From contig JAHFMN010000004.1 in assembly GCA_023264445.1 (NCBI GenBank), forward strand, positions 1 to 43,102: a stretch of 43,102 nucleotides of DNA, in the 5' to 3' direction. The notes under the pieces were generated by a model. It was not told the origin of the DNA and ran no database searches. It worked only from the letters and a program-made list of their open reading frames with translations. Origin of the DNA: Candidatus Kaiserbacteria bacterium (GTDB lineage: Bacteria > Patescibacteriota > Minisyncoccia > Phycocordibacterales > Phycocordibacteraceae). Of the stretch, positions 1,710-38,807 are shown piece by piece; position 1 is the stretch's first letter; every line of letters starts with the position of its first letter. Position numbers and translations under genes: made by a program.

Positions 1710-1728
1710 GAAAAGATCTGTGCGAGTA

Positions 1729-1764
1729 GTATAACACCGCACCACTCGTGGTGCGGTGTTATAC
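1729..1764. repeat. 36-bp near-perfect palindrome between rpmF and nusB, overlapping a -10-like TATACT on the minus strand
   Basis: gtataacaccgcaccac-tc-gtggtgcggtgttatac: 17-bp arms with a 2-nt centre. Confidence 0.9.
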
Positions 1765-1781
1765 AAACGTTTTGTGGATTG

Positions 1782-10115: not shown

Positions 10116-10167
10116 GTGTTTCCTATTTCCGAAATACCTTCCTCTGAAGATATGCCGGAAAAGGGAT

Positions 10168-10201
10168 CCGTTAGGAACCATGCGAGCATGATTCCTAACG
10201 G
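10168..10201. repeat. 34-bp intergenic near-palindrome (hairpin)
   Basis: ccgttaggaa-c-catgc-ga-gcatg-a-ttcctaacgg; fully paired on the minus strand with one G-U pair. Confidence 0.8.
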
Positions 10202-10230
10202 TCCGAAATGAAGTAGAATAGCTGTCGCTG

Positions 10231-11936: not shown

Positions 11937-12011
11937 CACTATTCTGTCAATAATGTCAAGGGTTGAGTGAAATCACGAAAACTTGACATAAAAACTCACT
12001 CGTGTTATGTA
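11937..12011. promoter_or_regulatory. Divergent promoter region with back-to-back TTGACA -35 boxes
   Basis: TTGACA at 11983-11988 (+) and tgtcaa at 11945-11950 and 11954-11959 (-). atgtcaag...cttgacat forms an inverted repeat. The -10 boxes are imperfect. Confidence 0.45.
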
Positions 12012-21380: not shown

Positions 21381-23291
21381 TTAGAATTCTTGGAAGAATG
21401 GCTCGACGTTCACGGTCACCTGCCGCACGATTGCCGCGCCGCCGCCGGTTGGGGTGCAAGAGATGCTGTAGGTCGCCTGGCCAGTCACGATAATCGTTGC
21501 CGATCCAGATATGCTTGACTGCGAGAAACCGTTTGGACCAGTAACGTTGCAGCTACTCATCAGAACCGAGCTCCAGGAGAGAATGCTCGAACCGCCCGAC
21601 ACCGTCACGCGCGGCGGTTCCGCACCGATGTTCACCTCCGGCTGAATCACCGTTACGGTTACTTGCGCCGGTGCCGAGGTACCCGACGCATTTGAACAGG
21701 TTATTTGGTACGTTGAGTCCTGCAAGAGCACACCGGTCGAGACGCCGCCCGGAGGATTGGTTGTCGCACCGCCCGTCGAGAATCCTCCAGCCGACGTGCA
21801 GGAAGTCGCATTGGTAGATGACCAGAAGAGCTTGGTCGACTGGCCTTGATTTATGGGGTTCGGGCTTGCAGAGAGTGTCACAGTCGGCGGACAGGTGGAA
21901 TTGGATGGGACAGCAGCGGAGCAAGAACTGTCGCATTGAACCGTGCCGGTATTCGTCTGGCCGCATGAATTTGCTGCGGACGAACAAACAGCTCCTTGGT
22001 TCGCGACGCATAGCACCGTGACCACCTTCCATGCTCCGCAGTTGTTGCCCTCGTTAGACTCATCAATAGAACCGGCCCATGAACTGTTGTTGTCAGCGCA
22101 CGCGCGCACGTTGTAGGTACCGGCTGCTGTAAAGGTGTATGAGCCAGAAAGACCGGTGGAAGCGCCGGAGCTAAGGGAGGAGACGGTGTTGGCATTTACC
22201 ATCGCAATCGTCACCGTCTTGGCGCTGTTAGCAACCTGGAAGATGTTCGGGAAATTCGAGGCCGAACCATCACCGATATTGGAGACGGTTGCTGAGAAAG
22301 ACTCGCTTTGTCCGGCCACAACAGACGTGGGAGAAATAGTAGTATCCCCTGCCGTGAGATCAGCGAGCGAAACCGGGATCTGAACGCAGCCGGTTCCGTC
22401 TGCGCTCGGCTCCGTTCCTGATGGACAGGTAACCACGTGACTGATGGTCGCCGTGTTAGATGTTCCTCCGGGACCGGTACAAGTATTGCTCCAGGTGTAG
22501 GTCCCTGGATAGGTGGGTGTCGCTGGTAGTGAGCCAGAGGTTCCTGCTGCCCATGGATTGGTAACGAGACCGTCCGGACGCACTCTCGTTACCGTGCAGG
22601 ATGTTGCGTTCGTCGAGCTCCATGAGACGGTAAACGTTGTGCCGGAATCGGCGGTGCTAACTGATTGACTGATTGAGGCAGTCGGAGCCACACAACTCGA
22701 ATCGGACGGGGGTGTCGAAGAACATGAACCATCGCACTGGATAGTGCCGTTCGATTGCGTCTGGCCGCAAGAATTTGGTGAGGATGCACACGCGGAACCG
22801 TATCCGGCCGCACATGCTGGACTCACGTACACTGAGCACGTCTCCATACCAATGACGTCACTGCCACCCAACGAATACACCGATATTACTTTGTTTTGTG
22901 TACCAGAAGAACCATACACGTTCGTCTCGTAGGTGCGGTAGTACGGCTCGGCATCAATGTGGTATATACCGGCATTGATGCCCTGTAGGGAATACGGGTT
23001 CGTAACAGTCCACGTAACGGTATCACCGACTTTTGGATTTGTTGGCGAAACTGCACAGATCGCAGAGCACATGCCCGTACCCGCATTATGTTCGTAGCCG
23101 GATTCGCAGGAGGCTGGGACTATTACACCGCCTTCCGCCCCCCGAGGAGAAAGCGACACAAAGCCTACTTCAGAAGAATGTACCGGCGTATGGGCCAGCA
23201 TCAGGGACTGCAAGGAGCCGATAACGCCAAGAAAAAGCAGGAGCGACCCGAGAGATACCGCCAGTTGCCGAGTTCGCAGGCGAACCTTCAT
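21381..23291 (-). CDS. Large secreted/surface protein with a CARDB-like domain, two six-Cys repeats and several beta-rich Ig-like modules
   Basis: Start MKVRLRTRQLAVSLG (TM/signal). ADLTAG...SATVSNIG...IDESNEGNNC is CARDB-like. Repeats of the form C..N.G..C.S..NSCGQT..GT.QCD.SCS...P.(D/N)S.C. Confidence 0.85.
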   Translation of the reverse strand: MKVRLRTRQLAVSLGSLLLFLGVIGSLQSLMLAHTPVHSSEVGFVSLSPRGAEGGVIVPASCESGYEHNAGTGMCSAICAVSPTNPKVGDTVTWTVTNPYSLQGINAGIYHIDAEPYYRTYETNVYGSSGTQNKVISVYSLGGSDVIGMETCSVYVSPACAAGYGSACASSPNSCGQTQSNGTIQCDGSCSSTPPSDSSCVAPTASISQSVSTADSGTTFTVSWSSTNATSCTVTRVRPDGLVTNPWAAGTSGSLPATPTYPGTYTWSNTCTGPGGTSNTATISHVVTCPSGTEPSADGTGCVQIPVSLADLTAGDTTISPTSVVAGQSESFSATVSNIGDGSASNFPNIFQVANSAKTVTIAMVNANTVSSLSSGASTGLSGSYTFTAAGTYNVRACADNNSSWAGSIDESNEGNNCGAWKVVTVLCVANQGAVCSSAANSCGQTNTGTVQCDSSCSAAVPSNSTCPPTVTLSASPNPINQGQSTKLFWSSTNATSCTSAGGFSTGGATTNPPGGVSTGVLLQDSTYQITCSNASGTSAPAQVTVTVIQPEVNIGAEPPRVTVSGGSSILSWSSVLMSSCNVTGPNGFSQSSISGSATIIVTGQATYSISCTPTGGGAAIVRQVTVNVEPFFQEF

Positions 23292-23322
23292 AGGTTGTAT
23301 ACCCAAAAGGTACCACGCGCCT

Positions 23323-24132
23323 TCAGCTAGCACTGCCAGTATCCCCAGTAGAGAGGAGGCGCATATTCTCCTCAAGCGAGGACTTCATTTTCAAAAACCC
23401 TTCGGTGTAGATGTCCGGATTGTTCCCGGGATACGCAGCTCCCCAACTCGCTTCAGACATTGTGGCGAGTATGGAGAGCGCCTTAGCGAATGCCTCCTTC
23501 GCGCCTTTCTTATCATCCATGTTCAGGAGCGCGACGCCGAGCGAGTTCCACAGCCATGGATTGTTCGGCTCAATCTTGAGCCCTGTGCGCGCAGTATCGC
23601 GCGCCTCTGCATACTTCCCTTCTTGGAAATAAATCCACGCGAGATCATTATTTCCCGCCCAGCTCTCCGGCTTCCACGCCAGAAATGCTTTGAAATCCGC
23701 CTCTGCTTTTGCCAGCTGGCCGCTGTAGCCGTAAATGAGTCCGCGCACGTAATACGAGCGGCCGAAGTCCGGATGAAGAGCGAGTTCTGCATTTATTTCC
23801 GCGAGCGCATCGGGAAAATCGCTGCGGATAAAATAGACGCGCGCTAGCTGATAATGCGGGCCTTCCATACTCGGATCAAGCGTGAGCGCTTTGCGGAAAT
23901 ATGCTTCTGCTTTTTTTAAATCATACGCGCCACCACCGAAATAATAGTTCCCCATATCAAAAAAGAGATTCGGATCGGATGGAGAAAGGACCGAGGCGAG
24001 CATGCCCGCGTGCAGCTGTTGCCATACGAACCGACCGGCCGCCGCGTTCTGTCTTGCTACGAAAATGCTTGCTATACAGAGCCCAAGTACGAGGATGCTC
24101 CAGAGAAAGGCTTTTTTAATTTCCTGTCGCAT
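23323..24132 (-). CDS. TPR-repeat protein with an N-terminal membrane anchor
   Basis: Tandem TPR-like helices (AEAYFRKALTLDP, YYVRGLIYGYSGQLAKAEADF, WNSLGVALLNM). TAAGAT 6 nt upstream. Confidence 0.88.
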   Translation of the reverse strand: MRQEIKKAFLWSILVLGLCIASIFVARQNAAAGRFVWQQLHAGMLASVLSPSDPNLFFDMGNYYFGGGAYDLKKAEAYFRKALTLDPSMEGPHYQLARVYFIRSDFPDALAEINAELALHPDFGRSYYVRGLIYGYSGQLAKAEADFKAFLAWKPESWAGNNDLAWIYFQEGKYAEARDTARTGLKIEPNNPWLWNSLGVALLNMDDKKGAKEAFAKALSILATMSEASWGAAYPGNNPDIYTEGFLKMKSSLEENMRLLSTGDTGSAS

Positions 24133-24174
24133 AGAGTCATCTTAACCCACCGCAGCGTATACACAGGAGCATAC

Positions 24175-24204
24175 TTGACAAGTGTGCTGTAAAGGTGATA
24201 CAGT
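24175..24204 (+). promoter_or_regulatory. Sigma70-type promoter for the 24253 gene
   Basis: TTGACA (24175-24180), 18 nt including TG, then TACAGT (24199-24204). AGGAGG RBS at 24241-24246. Confidence 0.6.
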
Positions 24205-24252
24205 TTCCCTCGGAATAGGAGTTGTCCAATCACACAATTCAGGAGGCATCAG

Positions 24253-24786
24253 ATGCGAAAAATCATCCAGCTTTTCCTCGTGTGCGCGGTTATGACTTCC
24301 GTCACAACCGCAATCCCGACCCTCGCTGTAGAACCGGCCGCAAAGGCGCCCGAAAAGGCTGCTGCTGCGAAAAAGCCGGCGAAGAAACCGGCGGCCAAAG
24401 CAGTGAAGAAAAAGCCGACAGTGAAAAAGGATGCGACCCTTGGAAAAACGACCACACCCAAGAGGGCGCCGGCGGGGCCCGAGCCGATTCGAACAGTTCG
24501 TCTAGGCTCGACGGCGACCGGCCAGCTTTGGGTATACGATGGTCCGACCCTTTTCGATGCGGGAGGCACCACCTGTCTGCTTCGTGTGGAGCGGCCACAG
24601 CCGATCGTCGGATGGGAATTTCTCCAAAGGATGGCGCTCCACATGGACGTTCCGGAGTTTGCCCAGTTCGCGCGATCAATCCTGCGACAAGAGGCAGACA
24701 GCAAACGCCCGCTTTCGCCAACCGAGCAGATAGCTCTGCGCGATCTGCTCGAGCTCGGATGTCGTGGGACTCCTAACTTCGCGTGA
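24253..24786 (+). CDS. Secreted protein with an Ala/Lys/Pro-rich (histone H1-like) segment
   Basis: Signal peptide, AAKKPAKKPAAKAVKKKP, strong RBS, own promoter and terminator. Confidence 0.75.
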   Translation: MRKIIQLFLVCAVMTSVTTAIPTLAVEPAAKAPEKAAAAKKPAKKPAAKAVKKKPTVKKDATLGKTTTPKRAPAGPEPIRTVRLGSTATGQLWVYDGPTLFDAGGTTCLLRVERPQPIVGWEFLQRMALHMDVPEFAQFARSILRQEADSKRPLSPTEQIALRDLLELGCRGTPNFA

Positions 24787-24802
24787 CGCACGACTTTGCC
24801 GC

Positions 24803-24835
24803 AACGGCCGCCCCCTCAACCGGGCGGCCGTTTTT
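24803..24835 (+). terminator. Rho-independent terminator
   Basis: aacggccgccc-cctcaacc-gggcggccgtt followed by a T-run. Confidence 0.8.
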
Positions 24836-24891
24836 ATGATAGATTCCAGGAAGGAAGCACAATCTGATGATCTTTTCCAAGGAGGTGTGGT

Positions 24892-25743
24892 ATGCCTGCT
24901 GTGCGTTTGCTGGCAATATTCATCCTCTTCGCCTTCTCCGGCAATGAGGCCCTCGCACAACAACTCCCCATATGGGAACAAGTATGGATTCCAACAAAAG
25001 AAAAGGAATTGTTCGGTAGGGAAAGCGATGTTCGACTTGACGCGGCGCTCTACCAACCGCAAGGAACCGCCCCATACCCACTTGTCATTTGGAACCACGG
25101 ATCGACCGGTGGTGATGCGTCTTTCGCGAAGGTATCAGCGCGTGCACCGCACATCGCTACCTTCTTCCTCTCCCGAGGTTTCGCGATGCTCGTGCCGATG
25201 CGAAGAGGCCGAGGCTCCTCAGGAGGTTATGACGGAGAAACGGATGGGGGTTCCTGCGATTTCGGGCGGTCAATGGCCGGCATCGAGCGGGCTATGGCAG
25301 ACATTGATGCCGCGCTTGCATACGCGAAAACGAGAGAGAACCTCGATACCTCCCGCCTCGTCATTGGAGGGATTTCTCGAGGTGGACTGCTCTCAGTCGC
25401 ATACACAGCCCGGCGCCCGGAACTCCGTGTCCTCGCAGTAGTGAATTTTTCTGGGGGCTGGACGGGAGATCGCTGTGCAAGCGACACAAACGGCGCGCTG
25501 TTGCAGAGTGGTGGTGCGAAGAATGTGCCGATGATCTTCCTCTACGGGGGGCGCGATGCAACTTACTCGGACGAATCCATCAGGCGGTACGCTGCGGGCT
25601 TCGAGAAATCTGGGGGAATCTTAGAATTCCAGTTGATTAAGAACGAGCTTCGTAACGGCCACTTCTTGTCTTCTGAACCGAAACTCTGGTTACCGCTCAT
25701 CACTCCCTTTTTCGAAAAGCTCGGTTATCCACGAAAGTTCTGA
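24892..25743 (+). CDS. Secreted alpha/beta hydrolase (dienelactone hydrolase / S9 peptidase-like)
   Basis: Signal peptide, VIWNHGSTG, MRRGRGSSGG, nucleophile elbow GISRGG, GGRD and C-terminal GH. AAGGAGGT RBS. Confidence 0.88.
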   Translation: MPAVRLLAIFILFAFSGNEALAQQLPIWEQVWIPTKEKELFGRESDVRLDAALYQPQGTAPYPLVIWNHGSTGGDASFAKVSARAPHIATFFLSRGFAMLVPMRRGRGSSGGYDGETDGGSCDFGRSMAGIERAMADIDAALAYAKTRENLDTSRLVIGGISRGGLLSVAYTARRPELRVLAVVNFSGGWTGDRCASDTNGALLQSGGAKNVPMIFLYGGRDATYSDESIRRYAAGFEKSGGILEFQLIKNELRNGHFLSSEPKLWLPLITPFFEKLGYPRKF

Positions 25744-25765
25744 CCGGTCCAAGGATGCCGTTCAC

Positions 25766-25793
25766 AGCCGCTCCCCAGGGGCGGCTTTTTTAT
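25766..25793 (+). terminator. Rho-independent terminator
   Basis: agccgctcc-cca-ggggcggct followed by a T-run. Confidence 0.75.
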
Positions 25794-26902
25794 TTCTCTG
25801 AGAAATCTGATGATTTCCATCCAAGAGAGATGAGATACTTCTGGAAATCCAAATCTATTTGAGCCATCAAAACAAGAGATGATTTTGAAACGCTAAGTGC
25901 AGGATTACTGCGGGCGTTACGATAAAAACCAGGGATTGTTCTGGCAATTCCCGCTTCATTTCCGGCTTTAAAAGGGGCGAGGAGATTTTGTATATCTACT
26001 GCCCTTTTCTTCCCATACGCACTTGCCAGAAATGCGGCATAATTGAACGCATTGTAACTTCCCGGTCTGACCCCAATCAACGCATCGCGCTCCATCCCTT
26101 TCTGAAAATACGCTTCGGCATCCTCCATGGTGCCTATCCCAAGTGATGCGAGGCGCTGTAGAGCCATCCCCTCTCTCACGAGAACACTTGGTATGAAAAG
26201 AGCATCTACGGAATTATTCTCCATCCTTTTCAAATCAGAATCTGCCGCTTTCAGACTTTCTGAGATGCGTGCAAGATAGTCCTGTCCTTGCGGAGAGGTC
26301 GTTGCGCCACGCAGTGTCGTGATGAGTTCATTTGAGTATCCGTACGCAACGCGCGCTTCGCTCATTGCAAGCGGATATATGCTCGCTGCATACTCAAACA
26401 ACTTTGTATAGGCCAAGTTCACATTGCCGTCCTTCTTGAAAGAATCATAGGGTGAACCTTTAAATGTTTCTGCGAGAATCTTTTCTCGCACATCTTGCTC
26501 ATAATGAAGGTCACGCATTATACCGAGTTCCTGGACGGCATATGCTCGCAGTCCGTCGCGGTTAGAAGTGTCAGCAGCCACACTTTTATATTGAATGATT
26601 GCCTCCGTGTAGTTGCCAAGGAGTTGGTGCGCGGCCGCGATATCCAGCTGTATCTGGACCTTCTGTGCCTCATCAGATGCCTCCGTAAGTGACTTTTGAA
26701 AAGACTTCAATGCCAAATCATATTTACCTTGGTCAAAATAAGTCTGCGCCAAGGCATAGTCCTGATTCCTTGCCTTCAATACAGAAACCGGCGTTCTCGT
26801 CCCCGAGTATCCTGGGGTTTTTGAGGAATTGTACAAAAACCAGATAACAACAACAGCGAGAACTATTGCTAAGAGCAACAACCACCGGAGTACCTTATTC
26901 AT
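25790..26902 (-). CDS. Membrane-anchored TPR-like helical protein, probably co-transcribed with the RiPP precursor
   Basis: Start MNKVLRWLLLLAIV (TM), 14 nt after the precursor stop. TPR-like YALAQTYFDQGKYDLALKSFQKSL and IAAAHQLLGNYTEAIIQYKSV. Confidence 0.8.
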   Translation of the reverse strand: MNKVLRWLLLLAIVLAVVVIWFLYNSSKTPGYSGTRTPVSVLKARNQDYALAQTYFDQGKYDLALKSFQKSLTEASDEAQKVQIQLDIAAAHQLLGNYTEAIIQYKSVAADTSNRDGLRAYAVQELGIMRDLHYEQDVREKILAETFKGSPYDSFKKDGNVNLAYTKLFEYAASIYPLAMSEARVAYGYSNELITTLRGATTSPQGQDYLARISESLKAADSDLKRMENNSVDALFIPSVLVREGMALQRLASLGIGTMEDAEAYFQKGMERDALIGVRPGSYNAFNYAAFLASAYGKKRAVDIQNLLAPFKAGNEAGIARTIPGFYRNARSNPALSVSKSSLVLMAQIDLDFQKYLISLGWKSSDFSEK

Positions 26903-26916
26903 AGAGTCATTCTCAA

Positions 26917-27231
26917 TCACGCGAAACTGCAAGAGCTGCAAGAGCTGCAAGAGGCACCACCAGGACCAGCGGTACCGACGGAGCAACTAGAGCAACTGGT
27001 GCAACTGGTGCAACCTCCGGCGCAAGAGCCGGTTCCGCAGCCACCAGGAACATCGGCATGTGCGGTATTCTGTGTAAACAAATCTGCAGGCGAGGCACCA
27101 TTTCCTGAACCCCAGATTTTTGGAATGGTAGCAAAAAAGATGGCAAAAAAGCCGAATATGGCCGCAAAGGACCCCGACAGTCCCCGCAAGAATTTTCTTC
27201 CTTTACCGAAGGCGTACCGAGCCACAACCAT
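26917..27231 (-). CDS. Putative RiPP (azol(in)e-type) precursor: basic N-terminus, hydrophobic helix, AHA-D site, 45-aa Cys/Ser/Thr/Gly core
   Basis: MVVARYAFGKGRK...TAHA|DVPGGCGTGSCAGGCTSCTSCSSCSVGTAGPGGASCSSCSSCSFA. TG-G-TATACT 7 nt upstream; divergent from YcaO. Confidence 0.8.
   Translation of the reverse strand: MVVARYAFGKGRKFLRGLSGSFAAIFGFFAIFFATIPKIWGSGNGASPADLFTQNTAHADVPGGCGTGSCAGGCTSCTSCSSCSVGTAGPGGASCSSCSSCSFA
26927..27016. repeat. 9-bp tandem repeats encoding the Cys-x-x periodicity of the precursor core
   Basis: (ctgcaagag)x3 at 26927-26953; gagcaacta/gagcaactg/gtgcaactg/gtgcaacct at 26981-27016. Confidence 0.85.
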
Positions 27232-27313
27232 GCATGGAAGTATACCAAGCCACATTAAGTAGCGCGAAGGGAGTGTGGACAAGAAGTGGCATGGCGCTGG
27301 TATCATCAGACCC
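27232..27313. promoter_or_regulatory. Divergent promoter between the precursor and YcaO-1
   Basis: TGG-TATACT (-, 27239-27247) and TGG-TATCAT (+, 27298-27306), each 7 nt before an ATG. Confidence 0.6.
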
Positions 27314-28753
27314 ATGTTGAAAGAGGTCGCTCCATTTGAGCGTGTATGGCTTGCCTTGCATGGCTCATCTTACGTTGCGAAAGCTATTGTCTCATTCATA
27401 AAGTTCTTAGAACGGCATCTCGGCGCTGAATTCATATATGACCAAAAACATATTGGGTATCAATCCCTTGAATTGGCGAAATTATTTGAACTTGCCGAGA
27501 CACTCCGGACACGCGGCATTATTCAGTCATACGGGAAAAATGAAGATCTAAGCGATGAACCACGAATTGCGTTTTGGTATATTAAATATCTTGATAACAA
27601 AAATGATGGGTCTGCTGGAGTATCCATGGATGATCATCCGCTGGCATTTACCAAGGCGCTTGCGGAGGCCATTGAACGACGTGTATGGACCCTGAACGAT
27701 CGGTTTGCGTCCCTGAAAATCGCCACAACTGCTGAAGCTGAGGGAAACAAAAAGTTTATATCTCCTCAACGCTTTGCCGGTTATAGTATTTCACAACGGG
27801 AAAAGGACCCATCTCTGACAATCAAGTCGACTGATTCATTTACTTGGGTTAAAGGCTACTCCTGGGTGGAAGAAAGACAGGTGTGGATTCCATTACAGAT
27901 TGTGAGCGTCAATGGAGGTCAAACTCAATCGAAAGAACCTCGTATTCGCGCAACAATAACAACTGGCATTGCGACACATCCACTTCGAATACGCGCCCTT
28001 CTTTCTGGCGCATTAGAAGTCATCGAACGTGATGCGTATATCATCACCTGGCTTAACCAGCTATCGCCGCCACGCATTGATATCGATGAATTATCAGAGA
28101 GGAGCAAATCACTCGCCCAACTCATTGCGCGATGCCGGCGCTATCGCCTTCTGCCTCATGTACTCCAGCTCCCCACCGATGCCCCGACGTATGCAGTCTG
28201 TGCCGTGATTGAGGACGCGACGGGAACGGCTCCTCGATTTTCCTTCGGCACCAAGGCAGATCGTGACCCAGCGGCTGCAGCAGAAGGAGCGCTCCTTGAG
28301 GCGCTCCGCACGCGTATAGGCACGCGGCGACAATTCATGTCAGATCATGATGATTGGGATCCGAATACACCCCTTACCGAAATTTCTGGCTATAAACGCA
28401 TGAGGTACTGGTCCGAGGGAGACCGTATGAATCATCTCTCCTTCCTTATCCAAGGGGAAATCCTTCCGCTTGTAAAAGAAGAGTGGGATTCCGACACTGA
28501 TGAGGAACACTTCTCAAGAATTATACGATGGTGTCGAAAACAAAAGTATGAGCTTGTGTCAGTGAGTTATACAGATGCCTTGGACAACTTACCCGGCTGG
28601 CACATAGAGTTCGTCGTCATTCCAGAACTTCAGCCCCTCCATTACAGTGAAAAACTATTGTGTCTTGGGGGAGAACGATTGAAGGAGATTCCGCGACAAT
28701 TTGGATACCCTGCGCGAGAACCTTATCTTAGTGATCCTCATCCTTTCGTATAA
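27314..28753 (+). CDS. YcaO-family protein 1 (azoline-forming cyclodehydratase type)
   Basis: KALAEAIERR, TTGIATH...SGALEVIERDA, EGALLEAL, C-terminal PHPFV. Start placed at MLKEVAPF. Confidence 0.92.
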   Translation: MLKEVAPFERVWLALHGSSYVAKAIVSFIKFLERHLGAEFIYDQKHIGYQSLELAKLFELAETLRTRGIIQSYGKNEDLSDEPRIAFWYIKYLDNKNDGSAGVSMDDHPLAFTKALAEAIERRVWTLNDRFASLKIATTAEAEGNKKFISPQRFAGYSISQREKDPSLTIKSTDSFTWVKGYSWVEERQVWIPLQIVSVNGGQTQSKEPRIRATITTGIATHPLRIRALLSGALEVIERDAYIITWLNQLSPPRIDIDELSERSKSLAQLIARCRRYRLLPHVLQLPTDAPTYAVCAVIEDATGTAPRFSFGTKADRDPAAAAEGALLEALRTRIGTRRQFMSDHDDWDPNTPLTEISGYKRMRYWSEGDRMNHLSFLIQGEILPLVKEEWDSDTDEEHFSRIIRWCRKQKYELVSVSYTDALDNLPGWHIEFVVIPELQPLHYSEKLLCLGGERLKEIPRQFGYPAREPYLSDPHPFV

Positions 28754-28755
28754 CT

Positions 28756-29484
28756 ATGAACGCCCTTTCGAGATTCATTGCACGCATTCATGCCTCTATA
28801 CGAGGAGTGGACATGGCGCCACACGGAGTACCTCTACGAGAAAAAGAAGTTCCTCGAGGTCTGCATAAAGAATATCCGCGCATGCCGCGCATTGAGCTTC
28901 CTGCACCAGAAACATTAACTCTTCCACTCAGTGAAGCACTGCACAACCGCGCATCATTCTCCGTGTGCGAAGATAGTCGACAGTTCTCATCGGGAGAATT
29001 AGGTTCGCTACTCGGAAATGCACTTGGCATGCGCACCGCTATGCGACGGCAGTACCCTTCGGGTGGAGGCCTTTTCCCGATCGAGACATATCTCATCGGG
29101 ACAGTGCTTGAAAGGTATCCATCCGGGGTATTTCACTATCATCCCAAGGCCCATGCACTCGAATTTTTATGGGAAACTTCCCCTTCATTTACTATGGCGG
29201 AAATCATCCGGGCTGGTGACACACCGTTCGCACCTATTCTTGTCATATTCACCAGCGTATGGAGCCGCTCCAGCGTAAAATACGCCGAGCTTGCATACGC
29301 GCATGGTCTCATTGAGGCCGGTCATATGGCCGAAAACATATTGCTCGCGGCAACTGCTCTCGGAATACATGCTCGGCCATTGGCCGGATTCTACGACGAA
29401 GCAGTCAGTACGCTGCTTGATCTTCCGAAGGATATAGAACAACCGGTATACGGCGTCCTTCTCTGTCCGTCGGCAATGCCTTGA
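28756..29484 (+). CDS. SagB/ThcOx-type FMN-dependent azoline dehydrogenase 1
   Basis: RRQYPSGGGLFPIETY, GVFHYHP..HAL, the Lys-Tyr pair in SVKYAE, IEAGHMAENI. Confidence 0.92.
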   Translation: MNALSRFIARIHASIRGVDMAPHGVPLREKEVPRGLHKEYPRMPRIELPAPETLTLPLSEALHNRASFSVCEDSRQFSSGELGSLLGNALGMRTAMRRQYPSGGGLFPIETYLIGTVLERYPSGVFHYHPKAHALEFLWETSPSFTMAEIIRAGDTPFAPILVIFTSVWSRSSVKYAELAYAHGLIEAGHMAENILLAATALGIHARPLAGFYDEAVSTLLDLPKDIEQPVYGVLLCPSAMP

Positions 29485-30275
29485 TGCTAGAATGCGTACC
29501 GTACATGGTTCCACGTCTTTCATATCTTATCTGTACCACTCCCCGATCAGGTAGCAATCTTCTCTGCACGACTCTCTGGCAAACCGGGATTGCGGGACGG
29601 CCACAGGAATACTTCATGCCAGGGCTCCGCGATGAATTCATCCGGTATGCCCAACTCGGTGTGAGTGAGCATCCGGATTATGTACGCGCCGTTATCCGCG
29701 CCTCGACCACTCCAAACGGTATCTTCGGAACAAGTGTACATGCTTTCCAAACTGCACTCGTCATGAAGCGGATACAGCATGCAGAAGGCAAGGAGTTTTT
29801 TTCATTTCGAGAAGCAGTAGAAACTGCATTTCCGAACATCAAGTACATCTTTTTAACACGAGTAGACAAGGTCGCACAGGCCGTTTCCTATTATCGGGCA
29901 GTCATGACCGGAGAATGGCGACGCTTCAGCGATGAACACATTCCCGAGTCTAATAAAACTATCAAGATGGACCACTATGGCATTAAAAAATGCCTTGAGT
30001 TGCTCGAACAATCGGATGCTTATTGGGAAAAATTCTTTGAGGAACACGAACTGTCCCCGTTGCGGATTACTTTTGAAGATCTCACACGGAAGTATGGAAA
30101 GACCGTTCAGAATATTCTCTCCTATCTTGAGCTTCCTGCCGTCCCTATACCCCCTCCGGCAACAAAGAAAATTTCAGACGAACGTTCCAAATCCTGGGAA
30201 GAAGAATTTATACAACTTGAAAAAAAGAACCCCATACACACCGAGCCGACTAACTACGCATGGGCACCGTTTTAA
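29484..30275 (+). CDS. Stf0-family PAPS-dependent sulfotransferase
   Basis: YLICTTPRSGSNLLC (5'-PSB loop), GRPQEYF, FLTRVDKVAQAVSY (3'-PB). ATG overlaps the SagB-1 TGA; alternative start 29505. Confidence 0.9.
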   Translation: MLECVPYMVPRLSYLICTTPRSGSNLLCTTLWQTGIAGRPQEYFMPGLRDEFIRYAQLGVSEHPDYVRAVIRASTTPNGIFGTSVHAFQTALVMKRIQHAEGKEFFSFREAVETAFPNIKYIFLTRVDKVAQAVSYYRAVMTGEWRRFSDEHIPESNKTIKMDHYGIKKCLELLEQSDAYWEKFFEEHELSPLRITFEDLTRKYGKTVQNILSYLELPAVPIPPPATKKISDERSKSWEEEFIQLEKKNPIHTEPTNYAWAPF

Positions 30276-30283
30276 TGGAGTAC

Positions 30284-31030
30284 TTATTTTGAAAGCATAA
30301 GCGCATACACGAGTGATTCCTGTGTGCCATCAATATCAAGAAGAGAATGGAGGGCTTCATCCTGCGTTCCTCCCATTCCGGTAACACCGACACCACACGG
30401 AGCTGCCGAAAGATACATCCCTTGCCCAATGTGCCCAGCTTCGAGCAATACGTAGCGGTACGCTCGCTCACCATATTTCATGGCCGTGCGGTTAAACACC
30501 GCAGTAACGAGTACCGCCATGGAACAATCCTTTGCCCACGGATAGGTGAACATCTGCAAAATGTCTTGGCTTGAAAAAGCACGGACGCGCAATACATTGA
30601 GTGCGTGTTCTTTGACATTGAAATGATATACACCCGGCGCGATTCCATTTTCTTTCTTAAGAGATAGCACATATACTTCAAGTGGAAACCGCATACCCCC
30701 AGAAGGTTGCGCTCGAAGTTTTACTCCACTTGTATGCCGCACGGTATCTTGAAGCCCGCAAGAATATTTCAGTATTGCTGAAAGATCGGCAATGGAAATC
30801 CCATGTTCATGTGCCCCATTCACTGATTTTCTATTGGCGACGATGTCAAAAAAATTTGTGGGTGGAGGCGCCGTTTTTGTGAGCGGTATTGTGCGGACCC
30901 CCGCATAGGATTTGTAATAAATTGTCTTCCATTCTTTCGGCCAATCTTCAGTTCGCTGGAATAAGCGAGAGTCAGTTCCTGCCGCATGATCGGCACTTCT
31001 TCTGTGGTATTGGTGAAAAAAAAATGGCAT
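30284..31030 (-). CDS. SagB/ThcOx-type FMN-dependent azoline dehydrogenase 2
   Basis: LRAQPSGGMRFPLEVY, GVYHFNVKEHAL, AMKYGERAYRY, LEAGHIGQ. Start MPFFFH chosen; 31084 is possible. Confidence 0.92.
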   Translation of the reverse strand: MPFFFHQYHRRSADHAAGTDSRLFQRTEDWPKEWKTIYYKSYAGVRTIPLTKTAPPPTNFFDIVANRKSVNGAHEHGISIADLSAILKYSCGLQDTVRHTSGVKLRAQPSGGMRFPLEVYVLSLKKENGIAPGVYHFNVKEHALNVLRVRAFSSQDILQMFTYPWAKDCSMAVLVTAVFNRTAMKYGERAYRYVLLEAGHIGQGMYLSAAPCGVGVTGMGGTQDEALHSLLDIDGTQESLVYALMLSK

Positions 31031-31046
31031 GGAAATGTGTCGGTTG

Positions 31047-32627
31047 CTACGGGAACGGGTGTGGAATGGGATTATACGCATCAATTGGTACCGCAGTGTA
31101 GCCTAGTTTCCCTGGAACCTCCCGCAAACGAACGCAATCAAGAAGAGCATCGCTCTCTCGTAAGTACAGAGGCATGAGGGCTGGAATAATAACTTTCACG
31201 ACATGGTAATTGAGATCCCCAAGAACGGGATTCGAAGCCTCATGACAAAACACCTCATATGCTCGACCGGATTCTTTTTCCATGCGAATGAACTCGCTCA
31301 AGACGCGCGTGAGTGCGGCTTTGTGATTACTTGGTATTGAAGGGAACCCGCTTGCCCACTGCTCGAATGAAATCTTTTCTCCTGAGAGGAAAAAAAGAAT
31401 TTTATTAGCTATTTTTCCCGATCTCCACAAGTTTACTCGCTCGTCTTTTCCGATGTTCCTGTCAGAAAATGCCGCGCGTTCCTCATCGAAAACAAACAGA
31501 GGGAGTTCCTTATACGGCGAACTTAGAAAGGCAATATGCTCAAGAAGAGCTCCTTCAAGAACATGATGAGGGTCCGGGTGGCACTTCCCTGTTACACTTA
31601 TAGATATTCTCCCGTCTGTAAGCGGGGTGCGAATAAGACATGTCGCTGATGGCACACGTATATCCGATGTCGTATCAAGAAAATATATCTCGTATCCACG
31701 ATCCAAAAGCGAACCATATATCTCAAGGAAACGCTGAGAAAGTTTCCCAGAGTTGTGCTGATCAATGCAAATCTGCCGGGGCGAAAGCCGATTAAGCCAG
31801 TAAATGAGGAATCCGTCGCGTTCAATGAGTTCACATATACCCGACAGAGCGGCTTCAGTTAAAGAAAATCCACCACCCGCACCATTTGTCGTCCTCGGCG
31901 AGAAGATATACGGATCAGGGCCATATGTTCCGCTGTATGGTAGCCCCCATTGAACATGCTGGAGCGGCAACGATATTTTCTTCCCCGTACTCAATGACTG
32001 CCCTTCAATGCAGTGGACGGGCGTATTTTTTATCTCCTTTTTTTTAAGTACTCCACTGGTCAGACCGTTCGGAACATATTTCTTCTGCCAATCAAAAAAA
32101 CGTGGAATTTCATGCAGGAGTGCGGGTGGAATTTTTGTATCCCCAAATGTTCTCCTGATAATCTTATTTTTCTGATTAAAAAATGGGGTAGCGAGGACAT
32201 GCCGCTCGAGAAGTTCACCTATGGACTTAGAGAGTGCTTCGGTAAATGAATGATACGAGGCTCCGCCTCCATACAGCGGGGTGTGTTGTGAATCTCGTAT
32301 ATGTTCTTCATTCCCATTGATACGAATATGGTGAGTCTTCGGCACTGTGTTGCGTATTAACGATGGAGTTGGCGTCATTCCATTCGATATTTTTTTCTTC
32401 GCTAAGTACACCAATACATCGCCAAATCGAGACCGCTCTATTTCTCGAGAAACGCCGACAGGAGTCGGGTCCGGCAGCTCCACTTTTCCAAAAAATCTTG
32501 CGGAAATTCGGGAACGGATGCGGGACCATGTTTCAACATTTCCATAACGACAATTCCCTTCGTTGCGCAGTTCATCGAACACCTTCCACGGTATATAGGG
32601 TTGATGAGTGAACTCCTCCTCGTACAT
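31047..32627 (-). CDS. YcaO-family protein 2 (azoline-forming cyclodehydratase type)
   Basis: KSIGELLERH, TTNGAGGG...SGICELIERDG, EGALLEH, C-terminal NPIPHPFP (PxPxP). Start MYEEEF after TG-T-TATATT and AAAGGT. Confidence 0.92.
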   Translation of the reverse strand: MYEEEFTHQPYIPWKVFDELRNEGNCRYGNVETWSRIRSRISARFFGKVELPDPTPVGVSREIERSRFGDVLVYLAKKKISNGMTPTPSLIRNTVPKTHHIRINGNEEHIRDSQHTPLYGGGASYHSFTEALSKSIGELLERHVLATPFFNQKNKIIRRTFGDTKIPPALLHEIPRFFDWQKKYVPNGLTSGVLKKKEIKNTPVHCIEGQSLSTGKKISLPLQHVQWGLPYSGTYGPDPYIFSPRTTNGAGGGFSLTEAALSGICELIERDGFLIYWLNRLSPRQICIDQHNSGKLSQRFLEIYGSLLDRGYEIYFLDTTSDIRVPSATCLIRTPLTDGRISISVTGKCHPDPHHVLEGALLEHIAFLSSPYKELPLFVFDEERAAFSDRNIGKDERVNLWRSGKIANKILFFLSGEKISFEQWASGFPSIPSNHKAALTRVLSEFIRMEKESGRAYEVFCHEASNPVLGDLNYHVVKVIIPALMPLYLRESDALLDCVRLREVPGKLGYTAVPIDAYNPIPHPFP

Positions 32628-32727
32628 ACCTTTATTGATGATAATATAACACGACCAGTCTTTTGAGACTTTAGGGGGTCCCTCGGGGCACAATCTCGCC
32701 CCGTCCGACCGATTGATGTTTCCTTAG

Positions 32728-36809: not shown

Positions 36810-36974
36810 TTACTGATTTAATATCGACTGCTTAAGCGGGGCATACTTTGCTTCGGAACCAGTAAACGCATTCGTAAGCGAGTTAGTCGTTGCGAAATGA
36901 TAGATGGACCATCCAGCAAGCACACCGGCAATGACAATCAAGAGTCCAAAAAGGATATTCGCGGCTTCTTTCAT
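36810..36974 (-). CDS. Small single-TM membrane protein (54 aa), not in the ORF track
   Basis: ATG overlaps the transketolase TGA (ATGA): MKEAANILFGLLIVIAGVLAGWSIYHFATTNSLTNAFTGSEAKYAPLKQSILNQ*. It fills the gap to the pfkB stop. Confidence 0.6.
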   Translation of the reverse strand: MKEAANILFGLLIVIAGVLAGWSIYHFATTNSLTNAFTGSEAKYAPLKQSILNQ

Positions 36975-37957
36975 TTCTTTAGCATCGCGCGCACGACCTC
37001 TTCTATGTGAGTGGCGTTAAGCCCGTAATGTGTGAGGAGCTCATCCGGCGTACCCGATTGACCGAACTGGTCAGCAACGCCAAGACGCATAAGCGGCACT
37101 GGATGGTGTTCTCCGAGACATTCCGCAACAGCACTCCCGAAGCCGCCCGCGACCTGATGCTCTTCAACCGTCACGATGCGTCCTACCCGCTTCGCTGCAT
37201 CAATCACTGCTTCCGTATCAAGCGGTTTTATAGTCGGCACATGGAGCACTAGGGAGCCGATGCCATCGTTTGAGAGCGCATGAGCGGCTTCAAGGGCCGC
37301 GTAGCTCAAGGAACCGGTAGAGAGAATTGCGACACGGGGATCTTCTGATTCGAAGAGCGCAAGCGCCTTCCCGATAGAAAACGGTGTCTGCGTAGTTGTA
37401 AACAGTGGCGTTGCCGCGCGGCCGAATCGGATATAGACAGGTCCATCGGTCTTTGCGGCCGCGACGACGGCCTTTCGCGCTTCCTCAGCATCTCCGGGAG
37501 CAATGACCGTCATCCCCGGAAGCATGCGCATCATGCCGATGTCCTCCAGCATCTGATGTGTCGCACCATCGGGTCCCACCGAGACGCCGGCATGCATGCC
37601 GCATATCTTCACCGGCATCCGGTTGAGAGCAATCGTCGTGCGAATCTGTTCATAGTTGCGCCCTGGCGAGAATGCCGCATAACTCGCGATAAACGGCACC
37701 TTGCCCGCAGCCGCCATGCCGCTTGCGATCGTCGCCATACCCTGCTCGGCAACGCCCACCTCGACGAAACGATCGGGGAACTGCTTTTCAAATTCTTCTG
37801 CGCGCGTGGACTCCTTCAAATCGGCACAGAGCACGACGACGCGTTCATCCTGCTTCCCTGCTTCTATGACGCCCGTGCCGAAGCCGTCCCTCGTCGCCGC
37901 TTGCGGAATGTCGTCCGCAAATGTTTTTTCGGAGAGATGTGCGGCCTGATTAAGCAT
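36971..37957 (-). CDS. tkt: Transketolase, C-terminal (pyrimidine-binding) subunit
   Basis: LCADLKES, VEVGVAEQ, GPDGATHQ, VTVEEHQVAGGFGS. Confidence 0.93.
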   Translation of the reverse strand: MLNQAAHLSEKTFADDIPQAATRDGFGTGVIEAGKQDERVVVLCADLKESTRAEEFEKQFPDRFVEVGVAEQGMATIASGMAAAGKVPFIASYAAFSPGRNYEQIRTTIALNRMPVKICGMHAGVSVGPDGATHQMLEDIGMMRMLPGMTVIAPGDAEEARKAVVAAAKTDGPVYIRFGRAATPLFTTTQTPFSIGKALALFESEDPRVAILSTGSLSYAALEAAHALSNDGIGSLVLHVPTIKPLDTEAVIDAAKRVGRIVTVEEHQVAGGFGSAVAECLGEHHPVPLMRLGVADQFGQSGTPDELLTHYGLNATHIEEVVRAMLKK

Positions 37958-38807
37958 ATTCGTGCGGGAGCTTACCGCTCATCGTGCGGATCTCTTTGAG
38001 AAATCGCTTCCCTTCCTCCTTGGTCGGAGGCTTGCCGTGCCAGTGGTAATCGAACTCTATTTCCGGAACGCCTTTGCCGGGGATCGTGTGCGCGATGATG
38101 AGCGTCGGCTTCTCGTACACCGCTCTCGCCTCCTCAATCGCCTGTATGAATGCCATGATGTCGTGCCCGTTCACTTCGAGCACGTGCCAATTGAAGGCGC
38201 GGTATTTGTCTGCAAGCGGCTCAAGCGGCATGACGTCTTCGGTCATGCCATCTATCTGGATGTTGTTGCGGTCCATGATCGCGGTCAAATTGTGCAGCTT
38301 ATTTTTCCCCGCAAACATCACTGCTTCCCAGGTATTCCCTTCCTCCTGTTCGCCATCGCTCATCGCGCAAAACACCCGCTGCTTCTTCTCATCCATGCGG
38401 AAGGCGTATGCGATGCCGGCGGCTTGTGCGAGACCTTCGCCGAGAGGTCCCGACGTCGTCTCGAGTCCCGGCAATCGCGCACGCTCCGGGTGCCCTTGGA
38501 GCCGGCTACCGAACTTTCGAAGCGTGAGGCACTCCTCTACGGGGAAATACCCGGCATGTGCCAGCGTCGCGTAGAGCACTGGGCAAATATGACCGTTACT
38601 AAGGATGAATCGGTCGCGTCCTTCCCAGAGCGGTTCGTCGGGCCGGTGCTGAAGAATATGAAAATAAAATGCGGTGAGTATATCTGCCATTCCTAGAGGC
38701 CCGGCAGTGTGCCCGCTTCCCGCCTCTACAAGCATCTTGATGACCGTCTCGCGAGTAGCTTCCGCCTGCTTTTCAAGGGCCTGGATTTGATCGTCGGTAA
38801 CTAACAT
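37950..38807 (-). CDS. tkt: Transketolase, N-terminal (TPP-binding) subunit
   Basis: GSGHTAG, DRFILSNGH, LQGHP, TTSGPLGEG, SDGEQEEG...DRN, HTIPGKG. Confidence 0.93.
   Translation of the reverse strand: MLVTDDQIQALEKQAEATRETVIKMLVEAGSGHTAGPLGMADILTAFYFHILQHRPDEPLWEGRDRFILSNGHICPVLYATLAHAGYFPVEECLTLRKFGSRLQGHPERARLPGLETTSGPLGEGLAQAAGIAYAFRMDEKKQRVFCAMSDGEQEEGNTWEAVMFAGKNKLHNLTAIMDRNNIQIDGMTEDVMPLEPLADKYRAFNWHVLEVNGHDIMAFIQAIEEARAVYEKPTLIIAHTIPGKGVPEIEFDYHWHGKPPTKEEGKRFLKEIRTMSGKLPHEYA

What the first reader, a model, noticed from the sequence alone, without database searches (positions are those of the whole stretch)
29484..30275. Stf0-type sulfotransferase translationally coupled into the YcaO-SagB operon
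Seen: the ATG overlaps the SagB1 stop (TGATG) and the PAPS-binding motifs are intact. Known: Stf0-family enzymes sulfate sugars, while known peptide sulfation (RaxST) targets Tyr. The core has no Tyr. Inference: either Ser/Thr O-sulfation of an azole peptide, which would be a new RiPP tailoring, or sulfation as a leaving group for dehydroalanine/dehydrobutyrine formation without a LanB. No PAPS synthesis genes are in the window, so the donor may come from the host.
Basis: inference. Interest (0 to 1): 0.68.

Follow-up and report, generated by a model that had tools for sequence, protein, structure and literature searches.

The report
Sulfotransferase gene inside azole-peptide cluster
A groundwater Patescibacteria (CPR) genome carries an intact Stf0-family sulfotransferase gene in the middle of a YcaO/SagB azole-peptide gene cluster; four related loci show the same linkage, so a sulfated azole peptide is likely but not shown.

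Summary
Window 29484-30275(+) encodes a 263-aa Stf0-family sulfotransferase (Pfam PF09037, E 7e-44). Both PAPS-binding motifs are intact, and the AlphaFold model (pLDDT 95) matches Stf0 structure 1TEX best. Its ATG overlaps the SagB1 stop (TGATG). It sits between two convergent YcaO-SagB pairs in a seven-gene low-GC3 island with a Cys/Ser/Thr-rich, Tyr-free precursor core. The window has no PAPS genes.

The YcaO linkage recurs. In a rare clade (about 13 members in 5.8 billion proteins), 5 of 13 independent loci have YcaO within 3 kb. One repeats the YcaO-SagB-Stf0 order with an ATGA overlap. None of 111 loci of more distant Stf0 homologues with at least 3 kb of flank has YcaO (Fisher p 6e-6).

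The linkage is not exclusive. The closest homologue (56%) sits beside a GT4 glycosyltransferase. Others sit in 2OG-oxygenase/SDR operons or beside an MFS transporter and an APS-kinase fusion.

Best reading (about 0.45): PAPS-dependent O-sulfation of Ser/Thr on the azole peptide. The acceptor is inferred, not shown. The "new tailoring" claim is overstated, because Thr-O-sulfate is known in methanobactins. An Stf0-type enzyme in an azole-peptide cluster was not found in the searchable literature. The leaving-group idea is unsupported but not excluded.

The parts
29484..30275 (+). Stf0-family PAPS-dependent sulfotransferase, 263 aa. An alternative in-frame start lies at 29505.
   Evidence: PF09037 E 6.9e-44. 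1TEX E 4e-20 with both PAPS motifs aligned. AF2 pLDDT 95.4, best fold match 1TEX. Homologues up to 56% identity.
27314..28753 (+). YcaO1 cyclodehydratase. The likely start is ATG 27314 by homology to the L008 protein; the longest ORF starts at GTG 27275.
   Evidence: PF02624 E 3.7e-42. TIGR03604 194 bits, below its cutoff of 219. 54% identical to the L008 YcaO.
28756..29484 (+). SagB1 FMN-dependent azoline dehydrogenase. Its TGA stop overlaps the Stf0 ATG.
   Evidence: TIGR03605 106.7 bits, above its cutoff of 78.4. Sequence read directly.
30284..31084 (-). SagB2 dehydrogenase, convergent with Stf0. The two stop codons are 8 nt apart.
   Evidence: TIGR03605 123.2 bits, above its cutoff of 78.4. 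Coordinates.
31047..32693 (-). YcaO2 cyclodehydratase, upstream of SagB2 on the minus strand.
   Evidence: PF02624 E 2.2e-37.
26917..27231 (-). Candidate precursor peptide. It has a basic plus hydrophobic N-terminal segment, a conserved NTAHAD motif, and a 44-aa Cys/Ser/Thr/Gly core without Tyr. It is transcribed divergently from YcaO1.
   Evidence: ORF translation. Homologous precursors sit at the same position in L008, L007 and L002.
25790..26986 (-). Membrane-anchored TPR protein, adjacent to the precursor. It belongs to the same low-GC3 island and is syntenic in L008 and L002. Its role is unknown.
   Evidence: TPR Pfam hits. Synteny. GC3 0.46.

Best explanation
The gene encodes a cytoplasmic PAPS-dependent O-sulfotransferase of the Stf0 fold. 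It is expressed together with YcaO1-SagB1 and acts as a tailoring enzyme of the azole-peptide (LAP/TOMM-type) pathway.

Proposed sequence of events:
1. The precursor (26917-27231, minus strand) is made with a long leader and a C-terminal Cys/Ser/Thr/Gly core.
2. The two YcaO/SagB pairs convert Cys, and some Ser/Thr, to azoles.
3. Stf0 transfers sulfate from PAPS to a hydroxyl group of the peptide. This is most plausibly a Ser or Thr that is not cyclised.
4. The product is an anionic, sulfated azole peptide.

Shown here: the gene, intact cofactor motifs, the fold, tight operon linkage, recurrence of the linkage in related loci, and shared base composition with the cluster.

Inferred: that the peptide is the acceptor, which residue is modified, the order of steps, and where PAPS comes from.
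For: 1. The enzyme is intact. PF09037 E 7e-44; PSB and 3'-PB motifs aligned to 1TEX; R126, Q132 and S135 invariant in 81 homologues; the Glu of 'AGRPQEYF' (E42) invariant in the clade; AF2 pLDDT 95 with 1TEX as best match.
2. Position in the window. It overlaps the SagB1 stop by one base, lies 8 nt from the SagB2 stop, and is flanked on both sides by YcaO-SagB pairs.
3. Recurrence in related loci:
   - L090 (37% identity) has the order YcaO-SagB-Stf0 with an ATGA stop/start overlap and a GGAGG upstream.
   - L001 (51%) lies between two YcaO genes.
   - L002-4 (38%) is convergent with a YcaO gene, with 13 nt between the stops.
   - L008 and L007 (39%) lie 2.4 kb from the precursor gene and 2.8 kb from YcaO, in a syntenic precursor-YcaO-SagB neighbourhood.
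   - YcaO-linked loci fall in all three subclades of the NJ tree.
4. Statistics. 5 of 13 clade loci against 0 of 111 background loci with at least 3 kb of flank, p 5.7e-6.
5. Composition. Stf0 has GC3 0.47, like the other six island genes (0.43-0.49) and unlike the flanking genes (0.55-0.65).
6. Acceptor availability. All three independent precursor cores offer Ser/Thr.
7. Precedent for peptide sulfation in RiPPs: RaxST, SslST, and the methanobactin Thr-O-sulfate (PMC11143521, PMC3621798).
Against: - No Stf0-family enzyme is known to act on a peptide. The only member known to me to have been characterised biochemically and structurally sulfates trehalose (1TEX).
- More distant homologues sit in glycan contexts with GT2 genes, an ABC2/Wzt exporter or a sulfatase.
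- The closest homologue (56%) is followed by a GT4 glycosyltransferase.
- Other clade members sit in 2OG-oxygenase/SDR operons or next to an MFS transporter and an APS kinase, with no YcaO on contigs of up to 8 kb.
- L088 keeps Stf0 at the same chromosomal spot (next to the SLT protein and L25) without YcaO in 1.4 kb upstream or 3 kb downstream.
- No residues discriminate YcaO-linked from unlinked enzymes.
- There are no PAPS-synthesis genes in the window.
Confidence: 0.45

Rival explanations
1. The enzyme sulfates a non-peptide acceptor, such as a sugar, glycolipid, cell-envelope glycan or small metabolite, as other Stf0-family enzymes do. It lies next to the YcaO genes because both are accessory genes that gather in the same variable island. 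It is not part of the peptide pathway.
For: - The family background is in glycan contexts.
- The closest homologue is followed by a GT4 glycosyltransferase.
- P0105 and P0107 sit next to an MFS transporter and an APS kinase, with no RiPP genes.
- L088 keeps Stf0 next to the SLT protein and L25 with different partner genes.
- No context-specific residues were found.
- Envelope proteins (CARDB, TPR, SLT) surround the cluster.
Against: - Stop/start overlap with SagB occurs in two loci whose Stf0 proteins are only 37% identical.
- The gene is sandwiched between YcaO genes in two loci.
- YcaO linkage is seen in all three subclades.
- Only 1 of 13 clade loci has a glycosyltransferase neighbour.
- There is no glycosyltransferase in the low-GC3 island. 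The nearest GT2 gene is 12 kb away, among genes with normal GC3.
Confidence: 0.3
2. Sulfation serves as activation. Stf0 puts sulfate on Ser/Thr as a leaving group, and elimination then gives dehydroalanine or dehydrobutyrine. This would be a LanB-, LanM- and LanL-independent route to dehydroamino acids in an azole peptide.
For: - The chemistry has a precedent outside RiPPs, from established knowledge: the sulfotransferase domains of CurM and olefin synthase sulfate a beta-hydroxyl before decarboxylative elimination. The OLS ST domain (4gox) appears among the weak fold matches, E 4e-4, TM 0.39.
- The cores are rich in Ser/Thr.
- No LanB- or LanM-type dehydratase turned up among the window ORFs scanned with Pfam.
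Against: - No lyase, thioesterase or elimination-domain gene was identified in the island.
- No pyridine-forming or lanthionine-forming enzyme that would use Dha/Dhb was found.
- The fold match to the activating sulfotransferases is weak.
- Nothing in the sequences separates this reading from stable sulfation.
Confidence: 0.07
3. The enzyme acts on the peptide, but on a different group or for a different purpose. Examples are Tyr where one exists (the L002 core has one Tyr, and the leaders contain Tyr), or reversible sulfation that keeps the product inactive inside the producer.
For: - The L002 core is ASNSTYIPPSNGGPECQGGSCGT, with one Tyr.
- A leader Tyr lies in the same basic N-terminal segment in the window and L008 precursors.
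- All peptide sulfotransferases characterised so far in RiPPs target Tyr (PMC11143521).
Against: - The window and L008 cores have no Tyr.
- The leader Tyr lies before the hydrophobic segment.
- There is no sulfatase gene in the window to remove a protecting sulfate.
Confidence: 0.1

Closest known systems
Stf0 (trehalose 2-sulfotransferase of mycobacteria, PDB 1TEX; Pfam PF09037)
   Same: Same Pfam family and fold. Both PAPS motifs and the conserved Glu of the G-x-P-x-E-[FY]-F segment are present. Similar size, soluble, no signal peptide.
   Different: About 23-25% identity. It scores 144 bits against the 400-bit cutoff of the trehalose 2-sulfotransferase equivalog model NF047724. The gene context is a RiPP cluster, not sulfolipid genes. 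Most clade members carry an extra C-terminal tail ending in W-A-P-F.
Linear azole-containing peptide (LAP/TOMM) clusters of CPR bacteria (Sharrar et al. 2020, PMC7298704)
   Same: YcaO next to a nitroreductase/SagB gene and a Ser/Cys-rich precursor in Parcubacteria or Microgenomates genomes. That paper reports 110 such clusters.
   Different: That survey mentions no sulfotransferase, and neither does the TOMM landscape paper PMC4603692. This cluster has two YcaO-SagB pairs, an embedded Stf0, and a precursor with a hydrophobic N-terminal segment.
MbnS and the Thr-O-sulfate of Methylocystis methanobactins (PMC3621798)
   Same: A sulfotransferase gene inside a RiPP operon. The product carries heterocycles and a sulfated Thr, so it is a precedent for aliphatic O-sulfation in a RiPP.
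   Different: MbnS is assigned to PF00685, not PF09037, and has not been characterised biochemically (PMC11143521). The heterocycles are oxazolones made by MbnBC, not YcaO azoles.
RaxST (RaxX) and SslST (sulfonated lanthipeptides, PMC11143521)
   Same: PAPS-dependent sulfotransferases that tailor RiPPs.
   Different: Both target Tyr. The ssl and ssc clusters carry the PAPS genes cysCDN. They are not described as Stf0-type. Here the core has no Tyr and the window has no PAPS genes.
CurM / olefin synthase sulfotransferase domains (PDB 4gox)
   Same: PAPS-dependent sulfation of an aliphatic hydroxyl. They are the model for the leaving-group idea.
   Different: They are domains of polyketide synthases paired with a thioesterase. 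The fold match is only weak (TM 0.39). No partner elimination enzyme is present here.

Membership tests
Stf0 sulfotransferase family (Pfam PF09037) | The profile HMM match exceeds the gathering score over the full domain. | tested here: met
   150.6 bits against a cutoff of 22; residues 13-242 cover profile positions 1-241 of 244.
Stf0 sulfotransferase family (Pfam PF09037) | A 5'-phosphosulfate-binding loop and a 3'-phosphate-binding Arg...Ser motif. | tested here: met
   TPRSGSN and RVDKVAQAVS align to the 1TEX motifs. R126 and S135 are invariant in 81 homologues.
Stf0 sulfotransferase family (Pfam PF09037) | The Stf0 fold. | tested here: met
   AF2 pLDDT 95.4. 1TEX chains are the top four PDB matches (E 1.8e-14 to 3.2e-12, TM 0.68-0.77). 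The next match has E 1e-5.
Trehalose 2-sulfotransferase (NCBIfam NF047724, equivalog) | A score above the curated equivalog cutoff. | tested here: not met
   144.5 bits against a cutoff of 400. It is not an orthologue of the trehalose enzyme.
Trehalose 2-sulfotransferase (NCBIfam NF047724, equivalog) | Conservation of the trehalose-binding residues. | not tested
LAP/TOMM azole-peptide gene cluster | A YcaO cyclodehydratase. | tested here: met
   Two copies match PF02624, at E 3.7e-42 and 2.2e-37. TIGR03604 matches fall below its cutoff.
LAP/TOMM azole-peptide gene cluster | A SagB-type FMN dehydrogenase. | tested here: met
   TIGR03605 scores 106.7 and 123.2 bits, above its cutoff of 78.4.
LAP/TOMM azole-peptide gene cluster | A precursor with a Cys/Ser/Thr-rich core next to the enzymes. 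| tested here: met
   Window 26917-27231(-), with homologues in L008, L007 and L002. No expression or product data exist.
LAP/TOMM azole-peptide gene cluster | An E1-like or Ocin-ThiF-like partner, or an RRE, for leader recognition. | tested here: inconclusive
   No separate partner gene was found by Pfam or NCBIfam. The 120-150-aa N-terminal extensions of both YcaO proteins were not analysed for an RRE.
Known RiPP peptide sulfotransferases (RaxST, SslST, MbnS) | A Tyr acceptor (RaxST, SslST) or membership of PF00685 (MbnS), with PAPS genes in the cluster (ssl/ssc). | tested here: not met
   The core has no Tyr. The best family is PF09037; PF00685 gives only 29 bits. The window has no PAPS genes.
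Peptide-directed activity of this enzyme | Sulfate transfer to the precursor or the cyclised peptide. | not testable with these tools
   This needs co-expression or an in vitro assay with mass spectrometry.

The most novel reading that the evidence does not exclude
Stf0 sulfates Ser/Thr of the azole peptide as a leaving group, and elimination gives dehydroalanine or dehydrobutyrine. That would be a third, sulfate-based route to dehydroamino acids in RiPPs, beside glutamylation (LanB) and phosphorylation (LanM, LanKC, LanL).
Probability: 0.07. Interest if true: 0.85.

Novelty: new variant of a known kind. Interest (0 to 1): 0.58.

Why it matters
Sulfation is rare in ribosomal peptides. The cases characterised so far are Tyr-directed, and no sulfated azole peptide is known. 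No Stf0-family enzyme has been shown to act on a peptide.

If this enzyme does tailor the peptide, three things follow:
- It adds a new enzyme family to RiPP tailoring.
- It points to an anionic azole peptide made by ultra-small groundwater Patescibacteria, whose secondary metabolism is almost unexplored.
- It offers a compact, soluble 263-aa sulfotransferase for peptide engineering.

The system is directly testable: five enzyme genes, one precursor gene, and a PAPS-proficient host. The mixed gene contexts of the clade also make it a useful case for asking how a small tailoring enzyme moves between pathways.

Tried and rejected
- **Chance ORF or pseudogene: rejected.** Homologues reach 56% identity, the motifs are intact, and the model is confident.
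- **Trehalose 2-sulfotransferase orthologue: rejected.** It scores 144 bits against a 400-bit cutoff.
- **Linkage to YcaO as a general property of Stf0 genes: rejected.** None of 157 background loci has a YcaO or SagB hit, even with relaxed unfiltered HMM searches. These HMMs were built from only 7 YcaO and 4 SagB seed sequences, so very divergent YcaO proteins could be missed.
- **Linkage as an exclusive property of the clade: rejected**.
- **Residues that distinguish YcaO-linked from unlinked enzymes:** nothing convincing found.
- **The C-terminal W-A-P-F tail as a YcaO-specific feature: rejected.** It is present in unlinked members and absent from L008 and L090.
- **Promoter and terminator scan of 26.5-33 kb:** uninformative; the counts are at or below shuffle expectation.
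- **Literature searches** for Stf0 with YcaO, for sulfotransferase with LAP/TOMM, and for Patescibacteria with azole and sulfotransferase found no report of this combination. A mycobacterial YcaO-TfuA locus near a sulfotransferase and a type III PKS is mentioned in PMC6511847, but I did not establish that its sulfotransferase is Stf0-type.
- **Whether the same genome has sat or cysC** could not be checked from one window.
Full report
**1. Observation**

The + strand ORF 29484-30275 (ATG to TAA) encodes 263 aa. The upstream SagB-type ORF (28756-29484) ends in TGA at 29482-29484.

A second in-frame ATG at 29505 coincides with the N-termini of most homologues (MxP[RK]xSY[IV]IC). The actual start may therefore lie 20 nt after the SagB1 stop. 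Co-transcription is the likely reading with either start. The Stf0 stop lies 8 nt from the stop of the convergent SagB2 gene (30284-31084, minus strand).

**2. What the protein is**

- Pfam gives PF09037 (Stf0 sulphotransferase) at E 6.9e-44 over the whole domain. Hits to the clan relatives PF13469 and PF00685 are much weaker.
- The only solved structure matched by sequence is M. smegmatis Stf0, 1TEX, at E 4e-20.
- In that alignment the 5'-phosphosulfate loop (TPRSGSN against SQRSGST) and the 3'-phosphate motif (RVDKVAQAVSYYRA against RPDVVSQAVSFWRA) line up.
- R126, Q132 and S135 are invariant across 81 homologues.
- The Glu of AGRPQEYF (E42) is invariant in the close clade. It aligns with the Glu of AGEPQEFF in 1TEX. 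From memory I take that residue to be the proposed catalytic base; this is unverified.
- An AlphaFold2 model built on the 81-sequence alignment has mean pLDDT 95.4 and pTM 0.92.
- Its four best PDB matches are the four 1TEX chains (TM 0.68-0.77). All other sulfotransferases score far lower.
- The protein is not an orthologue of the trehalose enzyme. The NCBIfam equivalog model NF047724 gives 144.5 bits against a cutoff of 400.

**3. The surroundings**

The gene sits in the middle of this block:

precursor(-) | YcaO1(+) SagB1(+) Stf0(+) | SagB2(-) YcaO2(-)

- Both YcaO proteins match PF02624. Both SagB proteins exceed the TIGR03605 cutoff.
- The candidate precursor (26917-27231, minus strand, divergent from YcaO1) has three parts: a basic plus hydrophobic N-terminal segment, a conserved motif NTAHAD, and then the core VPGGCGTGSCAGGCTSCTSCSSCSVGTAGPGGASCSSCSSCSFA.
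- Homologous precursors with the same leader features and hypervariable Cys/Ser/Thr/Gly cores lie at the same position in L008, L007 and L002.
- Seven genes share GC3 of 0.43-0.49: TPR2, the precursor, YcaO1, SagB1, Stf0, SagB2 and YcaO2 (25790-32693). The flanking housekeeping genes have 0.55-0.65. Stf0 therefore belongs compositionally to the azole-peptide island.
- The scanned ORFs outside the cluster are mostly housekeeping, plus TPR, sortase and CARDB surface proteins, a GT2 glycosyltransferase, a hydrolase and several ORFs with no match. No sat, cysC, cysD, cysN or cysH was found among them.
- The ribosomal protein S2 is 82-87% identical to proteins labelled Paceibacterota, Minisyncoccota, Kaiserbacteria or Patescibacteria.
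- The sequence occurs in groundwater metagenomes. The CPR assignment is therefore supported.

**4. Is the Stf0-YcaO linkage more than chance?**

A profile of the close relatives shows a sharp score gap, from 331 to 240 bits. The gap delimits a rare clade of about 13 proteins among 5.8 billion. By contrast, more than 1,300 S2 homologues pass E 1e-60, and the 120 best listed are 80-88% identical. A neighbour-joining tree recovers the same clade.

Loci of this clade with YcaO nearby:

| Locus | Identity to window Stf0 | Arrangement |
|---|---|---|
| Window | - | Between two YcaO-SagB pairs, overlapping the SagB1 stop |
| L001/L087 | 51% | Between two YcaO genes |
| L090 | 37% | YcaO-SagB-Stf0 in the same order, ATGA overlap, GGAGG upstream |
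| L008/L007 | 39% | 2.4 kb from the precursor gene and 2.8 kb from YcaO, syntenic precursor-YcaO-SagB block |
| L002-4 | 38% | Convergent with YcaO, 13 nt between stops |

Loci of this clade without a detectable YcaO:

| Locus | Identity to window Stf0 | Neighbours |
|---|---|---|
| L167 | 56% (closest homologue) | Followed by a GT4 glycosyltransferase; 2-kb contig |
| L168-171, L088, L175 | 46%, 41%, 44% | 2OG-Fe(II) oxygenase, SDR, Stf0 operon |
| L176-179 | 50%, 48% | MFS transporter then Stf0, convergent with a nucleotidyltransferase plus APS-kinase fusion |
| L172-174 | 41-45% | Uninformative |

Among 157 loci of more distant Stf0 homologues, none has a YcaO or SagB hit, even with unfiltered HMM searches at E up to 10. 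These loci comprise 78 species-representative genomes, 76 metagenome contigs and three look-ups. Of them, 111 have at least 3 kb of flank. The comparison of 5 of 13 against 0 of 111 gives Fisher p 5.7e-6.

The distant homologues whose context was examined lie among glycosyltransferases, a Wzt-type exporter or a sulfatase.

The association is therefore real and specific to the clade. It is present in all three subclades, but it is not exclusive.

**5. Mechanism**

The best-supported reading is that this Stf0 is a tailoring enzyme of the azole-peptide pathway and transfers sulfate from PAPS to a peptide hydroxyl.

Since the window and L008 cores lack Tyr, the acceptor would be a Ser or Thr that escapes cyclodehydration. 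The enzyme has no signal peptide and PAPS is cytoplasmic, so modification would precede export.

What is shown:
- an intact enzyme;
- operon-level linkage that is conserved across deep divergence;
- shared base composition with the cluster.

What is inferred:
- the acceptor;
- the site;
- the order of steps;
- the source of PAPS.

I put this reading at about 0.45. Any action on the peptide at all I put at about 0.6.

The main rival, at about 0.3, is a non-peptide acceptor, with co-location explained by a shared variable island. Three results support it. The clade's gene contexts are heterogeneous. L088 keeps Stf0 beside the same SLT and L25 genes but with other partner genes. No residues correlate with context.

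Nothing here supports it, and no elimination enzyme was identified. I put it at about 0.07.

**6. Comparison with what is known**

- LAP clusters (YcaO plus nitroreductase) are already known in CPR genomes: 110 clusters are reported in PMC7298704. That paper does not mention a sulfotransferase.
- The TOMM landscape survey (PMC4603692) has no occurrence of 'sulfotransferase' in the search output.
- Searches combining Stf0 or sulfotransferase with YcaO, LAP or Patescibacteria found no report of this combination.
- Sulfated RiPPs do exist. RaxX (by RaxST) and sulfonated lanthipeptides (by SslST) are sulfated on Tyr, and the lanthipeptide clusters carry cysCDN.
- Methylocystis methanobactins carry Thr-O-sulfate, with a PF00685 enzyme, MbnS, in the operon.
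- What would be new is an Stf0-family enzyme acting on a peptide, and a sulfated azole peptide. I class this as a new variant of a known kind.

**7. PAPS supply**

The window has no PAPS genes, and the rest of the genome could not be examined. A 50%-identical clade member lies directly beside a 280-aa fusion of an HxGH nucleotidyltransferase domain and an APS kinase. This fits PAPS dependence of the clade. It also shows that organisms carrying this clade can encode at least the APS-kinase step. A donor supplied by a host organism remains pure speculation.

**8. Verdict**

Membership of the cluster is well supported, the chemical outcome is open, and the novelty claim needs toning down.
- The case is cheap to test by co-expression and mass spectrometry.

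Noticed in passing
window 26917-27231 (-); L008 5773-6060 (-); L007 5835-6017 (-); L002 6553-6891 (-): The candidate precursors share an unusual leader. It has a basic stretch, a hydrophobic segment of about 20 residues that looks membrane-spanning and ends in IP(K/T)(I/L)W, and then a conserved (N/D)T(A/G)(I)AHAD motif just before a hypervariable Cys/Ser/Thr/Gly core. AHA followed by D resembles an AxA signal-peptidase site, but it lies about 25 residues after the hydrophobic segment.
   Followed up: partly
window 25790-32693: This is a seven-gene low-GC3 island (GC3 0.43-0.49 against 0.55-0.65 in the flanks). It holds TPR2, the precursor, YcaO1, SagB1, Stf0, SagB2 and YcaO2, which suggests the genes were acquired as one unit.
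   Followed up: yes
window 27314-29484 (+) and 30284-32693 (-): There are two convergent YcaO-SagB pairs but only one recognisable precursor. No E1-like or Ocin-ThiF-like partner gene was found. Both YcaO proteins have N-terminal extensions of 120-150 aa that might carry the leader-recognition function.
   Followed up: no
window 21381-26986; L008 167-5751; L002 3400-6580: The neighbourhood around the precursor is conserved. It contains a CARDB surface protein, two membrane-anchored TPR proteins and, in L008 and L002 only, a rhodanese and a DsbA/thioredoxin-like protein. A role in export, anchoring or immunity is possible.
   Followed up: partly
L176 5004-5846 (-); also L177 and L178: A 280-aa fusion of an HxGH nucleotidyltransferase domain (PF01467) with an APS kinase (PF01583) lies convergent with a clade Stf0 and next to an MFS transporter. 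It may be a minimal PAPS-synthesis protein.
   Followed up: partly
L088 49-2251; L168 175-2335; L175 196-1613: A 2OG-Fe(II) oxygenase, SDR, Stf0 operon with overlapping genes occurs in three clade members (the L175 contig starts only at the SDR). L088 shares the window's right-flank synteny (SLT-domain protein, ribosomal protein L25). This could be a hydroxylate-then-sulfate pathway.
   Followed up: partly
P0005 (446 aa, JGI metagenome): This protein is a tandem duplication of the Stf0 domain in a single polypeptide.
   Followed up: no
C-termini of P0001, P0004, P0006-P0009, P0105 and P0107: Most clade members carry a tail of about 15 residues ending in W-A-P-F or W-A-P-Y. More distant Stf0 homologues and L008 and L090 lack it. 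The tail is modelled as coil at pLDDT of about 90. It does not correlate with YcaO linkage.
   Followed up: partly
window 14898-16052 (+); 789-1766 (-); 36971-38807 (-): Three gene architectures stand out: a single-chain PheRS-like protein (class II core plus FDX-ACB domain, 384 aa), a NusB-NUDIX fusion, and a split transketolase.
   Followed up: no
window 8076-11163 (-): Two large ORFs (776 and 310 aa) have no Pfam match. They lie next to a sortase gene (11255-11917) and a CARDB protein (12007-12762), so they may be sortase-dependent surface proteins.
   Followed up: no
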